A DNA stretch of 64,000 nucleotides from Phyllobates terribilis (Eukaryota): NCBI RefSeq assembly GCF_046119375.1, contig NW_027362761.1, positions 260,152,001-260,216,000 of the forward strand, written 5' to 3'. Numbering within the stretch: position 1 is the stretch's first letter; each line of letters starts with the position of its first letter. Positions 35,901 to 38,900 of this stretch are shown one piece after another. The position numbers and the translations under genes were made by a program. The notes beneath the pieces were generated by a model. It had not been told where the DNA came from, made no database searches, and worked only from the letters and a program-made list of their open reading frames with translations.

Positions 35901-38900
35901 TAAAAGATACACTCCAGGGCTGTACTAAAAATGGATGATGAACCCTCATGTGTTTAGATTTCAGCTCAAATTTCACCAACTGCAGCAGAAATCTACAACA
36001 CAGAGGACATCCACAGCATGCCTAGAACCCACTGGCGATATTTTATACTTTTTCTGAATGGGGTGTGTTAAAAACTTTGCTTACATTGTATACTGTACAG
36101 GGTAGAATGTTAATGAAAAAAGGAGAACCAAGAGTCCATGATACCATATAAAGTTTTACATTTTATTGAAAATGCATAAAAAACAAGGCAAGTGGGCAAA
36201 CTCGCTATCTCATTGAAAGGCCCTAGAAAAGGGCTGAAAAATACTGTTGGGAACAGCCAAGAAAAATGGTGTCATATATATCCATATATGGAAAAACAGT
36301 AGCCCGGTCGCTATACATATAAAATCTCACATAGGTGCATGTCATATTGACAGATATACCAACATTTATAAAGCCATATTGCTTATCAAGTTCTCAAAAA
36401 GGTTTTGTGCCTATAGTAAAGTAATGCAGAGTAAAGAGACATGCAGAAAATCCTAATCATAGCAATTTATATAGATAAATGCAAAGACTTCTTTTAACGG
36501 TTATAAAAGATAAGTACCAATTAGCTGAATCACAGACAGGTCGTTAGCCAGTCCCCAACGCGCGTTTCGCGTATGTGACTTCCTCAGGGTGGCATGTTAG
36601 TATGGATTCTCCGACTGCAATCCATGCTGTGTGAACCCTGCCTATTTATCCAGTATGGATCCAAGTCACTTGTCATACAGGACTTCTGTAACTTGTGTTT
36701 TCAGGATTTACTAAACAATATACAGTTACTGCTTTACTGCCAGAGAATAGACAATTATTGCAGCTTAGCCTTCATTTTAACTACTTAGGTAATGTACGAC
36801 TGCAAAAAATGATGGAAGCAATGTGCAAAGAACGAGGTGCCAAGCTATTTGCCACAGATGAGCGGTAAGAGCGATATAATCGTTTAGTTCATTATTTCCA
36901 ATTCGAATACAGCATCTTGTTTGTATGTAGAATATCTGTCTTTCCTTCATATTAATCACATAGGCCCACATTTATCATTGTAAGGGCTTGTTCACACGCT
37001 GTTTTTTTTCTGTGTTTTTCAAGGTTAAAAAATGCTGCACTTTACAGTACCAGCAAAGTAAATGAGATTTCCGAAATATCAAGTTGCTTATTTTTTACTT
37101 GCAGATTTGAACCCTCAAAGCGTTTTATCACATCATCAGCGTGTCAGTTCTTTCAGTGTTTTGGCAACATTTTTCATTCATTCAAATGAATAGAGGGGAA
37201 AAAAAAGTAAAAACGTGCTTATTTTACATGTTTTTCATGCCAACTCTGTTCTTGGTGCAGAAAAATCTGCTGCAAATACTCAACGTGTGCACGTACCCTA
37301 ATGCTGCAGATTATTTTCTGCATTAAATCTGCAAGTCAAAAAATACTCAACGTGTGCATGACACTTAAGGTTTCTCATTCACTTCGCTGGCATCAGGTTT
37401 TGCCACAAATCCATGCAGAAAAAAACGCGACAAAAACGCACCAAATCTGCAACGTGTGCACACAGCCTTACATTCAGATAAGCCAGGAACCCATATTGTT
37501 TCTGATATACAGTATTTGTCATTTTACTGTATTATGTTGGCACTATGTATAAAAATGATTCTATTTTATGTACATTTATATCTTTGGTATCTGACAGGTT
37601 CTGTATTGACAATGGTGCAATGATTGCTCAAGCAGGATGGGAAATGTTCCGATCGGGGCAAGTCACAGCACTACAAGATTCTTGGATAACTCAGCGGTCA
37701 GTGTCTCTTACAAGTTTAGTATTATTTAACTTAAAGGCTTAATTTTTGTAGGAAAGTGGAGAAGTGAATGTAACAAATATTAATCCTCATCACCTTTGTG
37801 TGTTTCCTTTTTATGAAAGAAAACAATGAGCAGCCACACACTAATGGTTTGACTAAAAAGTATTGATTTAAAATGTACTAATCAAGGGGTGTTCAACCTG
37901 CGGCCCGAAGGCCAGATGCAGCCTTGGATGTCTGTGGATTCAGCCCAACACAAAATTGTAAACTTCAAATTTTATGAGATTTTTTTGAGACTATGTATCA
38001 CAATGTCAAGTAAGCAAAGCGTATGTATGCTCTCACTATTTGTACACGTGCGGCGGTATGTGACTTCCAGTGTGTTATTTGCCAAGCGCACATAGAATTC
38101 ACACCATTCAACATTGCATGTGCTCATGGTGATTTTGTGAGGCAGGGAGGAGAACCAAGAGAGAGCAGTATCCTTGAGCCTGATGGAGCATAGTGAGGAG
38201 GAGCTGGTGATCCACAGTGTCTAATGCTGCAGAGAGGCCGAGGAGAACCAGCAGGGAGTAGTGACCATTAGATTTAGTTGTTAGATCGTTAGAGACTTTA
38301 GTGAGGGCAGTTTCAGTGGAGTCTAAAGAGCGGAAATCGAATTGTAAAGAGGCAAGAAGGGATTTATCTGAGTGATGGAGGATTAGACAGGAGTGGACCA
38401 AACATTCGAGAAGTTTAGAAATGAAGGAGAGATTAGAAACAGGTCTGAAGTTAGCAGCGCAGTTCTGGTCGAGGGATTTTTTTTTTATGTAATGGATGTA
38501 TGCTGGCGTATTTGAAGGAAGAGGGAAAGATACCAGATGAGAAATGGGGCTTAAATATTTTAGTTAGGTGAGTGGTGACAGCCAGGAAAAGGGACTGAAG
38601 GAGATGTGAGGGAATAGGATCACTGGTGCAGGTAGTAGGGCGAGAAGCCAGTTGACCTCTTCTTTCTGACTAGTTCAAAAACAGAAAATGAGCTAGATGA
38701 AGTGCAGAAGGGAAGAAAATGCATAATATTAGGGGATTGGGAGAAAATTTGCTGTGGATATGGTCAATTTTTATCTTTGAAATAATTGGCCAGATCATCA
38801 GCGATGAAGTCTGTGATGGGAGCCTGCACTCTTGGATTGGAGGAGAGAAGGAAAAGTGTCAAGAGTCGTTAAGGATTGTTGAATAGTGAGGTGATGAGCG

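What the first reader, a model, noticed from the sequence alone, without database searches (positions are those of the whole stretch)
36105..36600. Intact-core minimal hammerhead ribozyme heading a short non-coding retroelement, antisense in OSGEP intron 8
Minus strand 36593-36551 has CUGAGGA, an extra A, a 2-bp stem II, GAAA, a self-complementary stem III ACGCGCGU and a predicted GUU cleavage triplet (cut after 36557); stem I is 4/6 paired. Established: short palindromic stem III is the hallmark of Penelope/retrozyme hammerheads that cleave as dimers. Downstream are about 400 nt of AT-rich non-coding sequence with AATAAA and no ORF. Inference: member of a non-autonomous ribozyme-processed retroelement family, different in sequence from the 31.9-kb one, 195 bp upstream of exon 9.
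Basis: partly seen in the sequence, partly recalled or inferred. Interest (0 to 1): 0.7.

Follow-up and report, generated by a model that had tools for sequence, protein, structure and literature searches.

The report
Penelope retrotransposon stub carrying a hammerhead
This is an old, decayed 486-base piece of the end repeat of a Penelope-type jumping gene, lying backwards in an intron of OSGEP; it carries a real but likely dead self-cutting RNA motif, and its many sister copies start at one spot that likely marks where the element's RNA begins, so most were likely copied from uncut RNA.

Summary
The motif is real: a minimal type I hammerhead at 36593-36551 (minus strand), more than chance, antisense in OSGEP coding intron 8. 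The unit 36596-36111 is one of at least 44 diverged copies (nearest 82-84%). It is not a tandem retrozyme: it is the downstream part of the pseudo-LTR of a Neptune-type Penelope-like element. Relatives carry RT and GIY-YIG remnants, then CCAAT and TATA boxes, then this same hammerhead and tail. Of 39 copies found by the tail alone, 18 start 3-14 nt before CUGA, about 31 nt behind the TATA box; several have 12-13-nt target duplications. One starts exactly at the cut site. Best reading: promoterless cDNA stubs running from an internal priming site back to the transcription start of mostly uncut PLE RNA. This copy has a broken stem I pair and a competing hairpin, so it is predicted inactive; variation is CpG decay, not covariation. 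Minimal hammerheads in PLE repeats are known (about 9,000 in Xenopus). The scan noted similar start-or-cut ends before on other DNA of this genome. New member of a known kind; interest 0.3.

The parts
36111..36596 (-). Whole inserted unit: downstream part of a Neptune-type PLE pseudo-LTR, from the predicted transcription start to the shorter of two 3' ends
   Evidence: Homology to other copies runs 36596-36111; collinear with the pLTR behind RT/EN remnants in L039 and L095
36551..36593 (-). Minimal type I hammerhead; family stem I 36591-36588 with 36556-36553; C-to-A change at 36590 breaks one pair, C-to-U at 36578 weakens stem II; predicted cut after 36557
   Evidence: Sequence; column and pair counts in 40 copies; folding
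36558..36565 (-). Palindromic stem III ACGCGCGU (predicted dimer duplex -13.3 kcal/mol); in this copy also half of a competing hairpin with 36573-36569
36594..36599 (-). Left copy of a candidate 6-nt target-site duplication (TAACAT), overlapping the predicted start
   Evidence: the score alone is not above the null, but it sits on both junctions
36107..36112 (-). Right copy of the candidate target-site duplication
36509..36519 (-). Conserved GGTACTTACC-type motif at the position of the predicted 5'-leader splice donor of these PLEs; on the plus strand a consensus donor whose GT reads AT (36510) in this copy
   Evidence: donor role inferred, no splice joint seen
36162..36167 (-). AATAAA about 55 nt before the pLTR end, predicted poly(A) signal; same position in other PLE families of this genome
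35699..35789 (+). OSGEP coding exon 8
35790..36788 (+). OSGEP coding intron 8 (999 nt), host of the insertion
36789..36864 (+). OSGEP coding exon 9

Best explanation
The stretch is a decayed, promoterless stub of the pseudo-LTR of a Neptune-type Penelope-like retrotransposon, likely made when the element's reverse transcriptase primed at the end of the pseudo-LTR and copied uncut RNA back to its predicted transcription start just before the hammerhead. Shown: homology to pseudo-LTRs that follow RT and GIY-YIG remnants; CCAAT and TATA boxes upstream in long copies and absent in short ones; 5' ends piled at about -7 from CUGA; target duplications around several short copies; two 3' ends about 80 nt apart. 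Inferred: that -7 is the transcription start; target-primed reverse transcription by the PLE protein; that the template was either the 5' leader of a full transcript or a short transcript from a 3' pseudo-LTR; that the family hammerhead worked as a dimer or with protein help and cut only a minority of templates; that this copy is now inactive and neutral for OSGEP, whose pre-mRNA carries only the reverse complement.
For: L039/L148: RT, EN, promoter, hammerhead, then a tail 77-85% like 36467-36111. L095, L096, L100 and L145 have the same order; the L095 linker has CxxCxxC. Intact PLE L138 (1093-aa open frame, 99% identical pLTRs) has the same layout. Tail-anchored sample: 18 of 39 start at -14..-3, 5 reach -81 or further, 1 at +6, 1 at the cut (+31), 14 from +71 on (tallied by hand). 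Match to long-copy bases falls from 0.45-0.9 inside -7 to 0.19-0.32 at -12..-8, where long copies are 0.86. The TATA box starts near -38, putting the start about 31 nt later, at -7. TSDs of 12-13 nt in 4 of 15 short copies, null 2 of 210. L038 has an inverted 5' part ending at the same spot. Short and long copies are mixed on the tree: 11 changes, shuffled mean 13.4, 45 of 500 as low. Hammerhead pair probabilities about 0 in the monomer. PMC11167929 shows internal priming at two sites and uncut RNA as the main substrate for an anole PLE.
Against: No 5' end of an RNA was seen: only contigs were available. No enrichment of an untemplated cap G at -8 (5 of 31), though L033 has one. 11 of 15 short copies, this one included, have no convincing long TSD. 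This copy sits in a supported clade of 4 short copies (96/93). No intact ORF of this family was found; Pfam gave only sub-threshold RVT_1 (E 3e-4 to 4e-3) and no GIY-YIG hit, so the clade call rests on motifs. Groups were set by the upstream match, so the TATA contrast (10 of 14 against 2 of 31) is partly circular.
Confidence: 0.75

Rival explanations
1. The short unit became a self-propagating non-autonomous (SINE-like) element with an internal promoter, mobilised in trans by PLE protein.
For: Short copies outnumber long ones 18 to 5; some have TSDs; the three nearest relatives form an all-short clade with this copy; D. virilis Penelope has an internal promoter (PMC2377424, passages).
Against: Short and long copies intermix across the tree, including a short copy sister to ORF-linked L095 (99/99); the TATA and CCAAT boxes lie outside the unit; no young, near-identical short copies were found (best 82-84%).
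Confidence: 0.12
2. Monomer of a ribozyme-processed non-LTR retrozyme, spread by cleavage and circular RNA.
For: Palindromic stem III; dimer-type folds predicted for two copies with intact stem I (L047, L088); L029 starts exactly at the cut site inside a roughly 60-nt duplication; one contig junction of the L138 family begins at its cut site.
Against: No same-strand second hammerhead in any of 139 loci (many overlapping) with a hit, nor in the window; ends are not circularly permuted; the upstream sequence of long copies is promoter and ORF, not the unit's own tail; only 1 of 39 starts at the cut.
Confidence: 0.05
3. Ordinary 5' truncation of full-length cDNA, with a hot spot just before the hammerhead caused by structure or microhomology rather than by the RNA's start.
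For: PLE insertions are mostly 5'-truncated (PMC8557442, passages); 14 of 39 copies begin further downstream.
Against: A polymerase stalled by the fold should stop at its 3' side, not after copying it (inference); the peak sits at TATA-plus-31; inverted copies end at the same point.
Confidence: 0.06
4. The copy has been kept by the host to regulate OSGEP through an antisense RNA.
For: Core bases are intact after about 18% divergence from its nearest relatives (28 of 40 copies keep the core).
Against: It was found because it is intact; stems are decaying; no promoter; exon 8-9 splicing is canonical and intron cover is low.
Confidence: 0.02

Closest known systems
Minimal hammerheads in pseudo-LTRs of metazoan Penelope-like elements (Cervera and de la Pena 2014, PMC4209133; parts 1-2 of 4 read)
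   Same: Type I, 4-bp helix I, unpaired base between positions 9 and 10.1, G10.1-C11.1 pair, palindromic helix III, mostly single dispersed motifs tied to truncated PLEs; about 9,000 in X. tropicalis.
   Different: Helix II is only 2 bp (7-8 in the schistosome examples); the parts read do not map copy ends to a transcription start.
Neptune-clade EN+ PLEs (PMC8557442, passages read)
   Same: RT, CX2-5CxxC linker, C-terminal GIY-YIG-type EN, pLTR with hammerhead, inverted 5' pieces, optional tail.
   Different: The optional extension here is about 75-80 nt, not 30-40; this copy has no coding part.
Anole Poseidon PAc (PMC11167929; parts 1-2 of 4 read)
   Same: Two fixed 3' ends downstream of the hammerhead; AT-rich targets; uncut RNA as the main substrate; protein-assisted ribozyme.
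   Different: In PAc the hammerhead overlaps the ORF start; here it lies in a non-coding leader, about 500 nt before the pLTR end, behind a TATA box.
Metazoan non-LTR retrozymes (PMC7229834, passages; bioRxiv 10.64898/2026.07.22.740005, parts 1-3 of 5)
   Same: Short, non-coding, type I hammerhead, PLE pLTR-related; monomers exist.
   Different: Defined by tandem units of about 170-400 nt and circular RNA; no tandem was found here, and the unit is directly traceable to ORF-linked pLTRs.

Membership tests
Minimal type I hammerhead (PLE type) | CUGANGA, GAAA and NUH core with extra base and G10.1-C11.1 | tested here: met
Minimal type I hammerhead (PLE type) | Palindromic helix III | tested here: met
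   ACGCGCGU
Minimal type I hammerhead (PLE type) | Fully paired 4-5 bp helix I in this copy | tested here: not met
   3 of 4; family 30-38 of 40 paired per position
Minimal type I hammerhead (PLE type) | Compensatory changes in stems | tested here: not met
   Within the family changes are mostly CpG transitions; the 3 U-A cases in stem III are double CpG decay
Minimal type I hammerhead (PLE type) | Self-cleavage as dimer | not testable with these tools
   Indirect only: L029 starts at the cut; this copy's predicted dimer keeps intramolecular hairpins
EN+ Penelope-like element | Unit belongs to a pLTR that follows RT plus GIY-YIG-type EN | tested here: met
   L039/L148, L095, L096, L100, L145; by tblastn and motifs, Pfam below threshold
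EN+ Penelope-like element | Optional 3' tail, inverted 5' pieces, TSDs | tested here: met
Neptune clade | CX2-5CxxC linker between RT and EN | tested here: met
   L095 and L138
Neptune clade | RT phylogeny with reference PLEs | not tested
   No reference set was fetched
Non-LTR retrozyme | Tandem units, each with a hammerhead | tested here: not met
   (window and fetched loci only)
Non-LTR retrozyme | Monomeric linear and circular RNAs | not testable with these tools
   Only contigs were available
SINE-like non-autonomous PLE | Short copies form their own propagating clade | tested here: inconclusive
   Mixed overall, one 4-copy short clade holds this copy

The most novel reading that the evidence does not exclude
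Most solo hammerhead copies of these Neptune elements are 'strong-stop'-like cDNAs: the RT primes at the pseudo-LTR end and runs to the capped 5' end, which lies 7 nt before the catalytic core. The hammerhead is then the first thing in the mRNA, and the share of copies starting at the transcription start against the cut site (18 to 1 here) is a fossil read-out of how often it cleaved in the germline.
Probability: 0.55. Interest if true: 0.5.

Novelty: new member of a known kind. Interest (0 to 1): 0.3.

Why it matters
The locus itself is likely an inert relic. The family bears on an open question: what PLE hammerheads do (PMC8557442 calls their function unclear). If copy ends record transcription start and cut site, genome sequence alone can measure in vivo cleavage per family, and it would explain why thousands of solo minimal hammerheads litter such genomes without any retrozyme cycle.

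Tried and rejected
Rfam scan: no hammerhead family at E<=1. A pattern with a 9-nt spacer was my miscount and found 0; the 8-nt spacer found 16. The PLE ORF in L043 and the EN piece downstream in L042 belong to other families and were not used as the partner. A search from the cut site onward gave 3 matches, none starting at the cut. No intact ORF of this family among 150 scored EN hits of 49,578 candidates; only 30 loci plus 11 regions were inspected. No RNA holder listed by record; contigs are spliced, unstranded, and three pieces cross 36557/36556 unbroken, which says nothing on the minus strand (186 joints not shown). No splice joint in the L138 leader, thin cover. PDB search with the L138 ORF: 0 hits. 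Atlas unavailable. Cap-G enrichment not seen. An extended stem I using bases upstream of -7 fits one subfamily but not others; not pursued. Lunse et al. (RNA Biol 14:1499) was not held: only its title was seen; it and the closed bioRxiv supplements may already describe this motif class or family. That the start-at-hammerhead pattern is not in print rests on six searches and the passages read; Repbase and Dfam were not searchable.

Full report
Observation. The minus strand holds CUGAGGA (36587-36581), an extra A, a 2-bp stem II, GAAA, the palindrome ACGCGCGU and GUU ending at 36557, followed by GGGG. It is the only such motif in the window. A relaxed descriptor hit 7 times in 300 shuffles, and never with an 8-nt palindrome. 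Rfam has no matching model. The host is OSGEP: 35699-35788 matches residues 235-264 of a 335-aa PDB chain, contigs in 4 of 4 runs join 35789 to 36789, and 11 coding exons were located. An AG just before the first ATG may mean a further non-coding exon, which would shift the numbering by one. The genome has 10.6 Gb; amphibian is my impression from its repeats, not a tool result.

Family. Searches of the genome gave 9 matches for the head, 23 for the tail, 16 exact pattern hits, and 45, 8 and 43 with relatives as queries; all are lower bounds and include the queries. The nearest copies are 82-84% identical, so the family is old. The 31.9-kb element is a different, younger family (93-96%, 3183 candidates).

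What the unit is part of. Longer copies continue upstream into CCAAT-like and TATA-like boxes and, about 700-950 nt further, into the end of a PLE ORF. L039/L148 has RT and EN remnants, the promoter, the hammerhead and a tail 77-85% like 36467-36111. L095, L096, L100 and L145 show the same order. L095 has the CxxCxxC linker that marks Neptune and Nematis elements (PMC8557442, passages). An intact relative from another family, L138, has a 1093-aa open frame between 99% identical pseudo-LTRs, each with hammerhead, a GGGTAA donor-like site and AATAAA about 60 nt before the end. Pfam support is weak: RVT_1 below threshold, no GIY-YIG hit. No intact ORF of this family was found among the loci inspected. 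So the unit is the downstream part of a PLE pseudo-LTR.

Where copies begin. To avoid selecting for the hammerhead I took the 58 loci fetched by tail-only queries, 39 distinct places without this one, and scanned them with a profile of the unit (tallied by hand; 13 of 43 rows had no locus). Counting from the C of CUGA: 18 start at -14 to -3, 5 reach -81 or beyond, 1 starts at +6 (decayed motif), 1 at +31 (the cut), 14 from +71 on. Thirteen of those 14 were checked and have no hammerhead within 1450 nt. In 31 short copies, some from sister families, agreement with the 14 long copies drops to background at -8 to -12, where long copies agree at 0.86 (2 of 47 left out). The TATA box begins near -38, so a start about 31 nt later falls on the A at -7 (spacing rule from established knowledge). 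Four of 15 short copies with both ends have 12-13-nt duplications at the junctions, against 2 of 210 mismatched pairs (12 of 27 had no 3' end in reach). These units were therefore inserted as such. This copy has only a 6-nt candidate. L038 has an inverted 5' part whose inner end is the same point, as expected if a second primer ran to the RNA's 5' end. Against: no cap-G enrichment (5 of 31) and no direct RNA 5' end.

Where copies end. Of 33 distinct 3' ends, 16 extend about 70-100 nt past the shared anchor, 4 extend part way and 13, this copy included, show no shared extension. Two ends match the two priming sites and optional tail shown for the anole PLE (PMC11167929), though the tail here is longer.

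The ribozyme. In 40 copies in fixed register (7 of 47 dropped for indels), stem I is CCCC/GGGG, stem II 2 bp and stem III the palindrome; 28 keep the core, 7 keep core and all stems. Changes are mostly CpG transitions, without real covariation. This copy has A for C at 36590 and U for C at 36578, and forms a hairpin that buries GAAA; hammerhead pairs have probability about 0 in the monomer and the predicted dimer keeps the hairpins, whereas L047 and L088 give dimer-type folds. It is predicted inactive, and it faces away from the OSGEP pre-mRNA. That the family once cut is hinted by L029, which starts with GGGGATC inside a roughly 60-nt imperfect duplication (score 56, best of 1000 shuffles 46), and by a contig junction at the cut site of the L138 family. 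One case in 39 could be chance (my rough estimate: under 10%).

Retrozyme or SINE? No same-strand second hammerhead lies in the window or in any of 139 loci with a hit, so the tandem hallmark fails. On a tree of 44 copies (15 of the 47 dropped as other families or misregistered, 12 added), short and long copies are mixed: 11 changes, shuffled mean 13.4, 45 of 500 as low. A short copy is sister to ORF-linked L095. This copy lies in a clade of 4 short copies inside a clade of 16 that holds L039, so a small self-propagating lineage is not excluded.

Mechanism. Most likely a PLE promoter in the pseudo-LTR started RNA 7 nt before the hammerhead core; PLE protein nicked AT-rich DNA and primed at one of two sites at the pseudo-LTR end; copying ran about 490 nt to the RNA's 5' end; the product integrated without its promoter and decayed. 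The layout, ends and duplications are shown; the start site, priming and inactivity are inferred.

Comparison and verdict. Minimal hammerheads in PLE repeats, mostly single and tied to truncated elements, are described (PMC4209133). The link of retrozymes to pseudo-LTRs is described too (bioRxiv 10.64898/2026.07.22.740005). I did not find the start-at-hammerhead pattern in six searches, but could not read Lunse et al. or Repbase. Earlier scan notes on other DNA of this genome report like patterns; I had formed the reading before seeing them and they are not independent support. New member of a known kind; interest 0.3.

Noticed in passing
window 31471-32031 (+), OSGEP coding intron 6: About 560-nt copy of a younger, high-copy family (93-96% identity, 3183 candidates) with a hammerhead near its 3' end (31883-31912, palindrome AAGCUU). 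This copy has a 2-nt insertion in CUGA and GAAA changed to AAAA, so it is predicted dead. L194 shows a compensatory stem II pair.
   Followed up: partly
window 36509-36519; L038, L039, L042 about +110: The family carries one or two ACTTACCT(G) motifs, like the 5' end of U1 snRNA (recalled), which read as consensus splice donors on the opposite strand. In OSGEP sense the family base would give AAG/GTAAGT; this copy has AT at 36510-36511.
   Followed up: no
L029:1104-1630: Family copy that begins exactly at the predicted cut site and is flanked by an unusually long (about 60 nt) imperfect duplication.
   Followed up: partly
L138 (G000:C9:154591001-154599000, minus strand): Apparently intact Neptune-type PLE with 99% identical pLTRs, an inverted 120-nt piece at the junction and a hammerhead with a long stem II; contigs in two runs show a junction at its cut site.
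   Followed up: partly
L033 and L034: Two copies share internal insertions at about 80% identity, suggesting an old duplication or a master that already held them.
   Followed up: no
L053-L060 (contig C7, 149-166 Mb): Near-identical copies spaced 150-400 kb apart, a segmental amplification; counted as one.
   Followed up: no
window 37599-50760: The last OSGEP coding intron is about 13 kb and intron 6 about 9 kb, filled with MITE-like inverted repeats and minisatellites.
   Followed up: no
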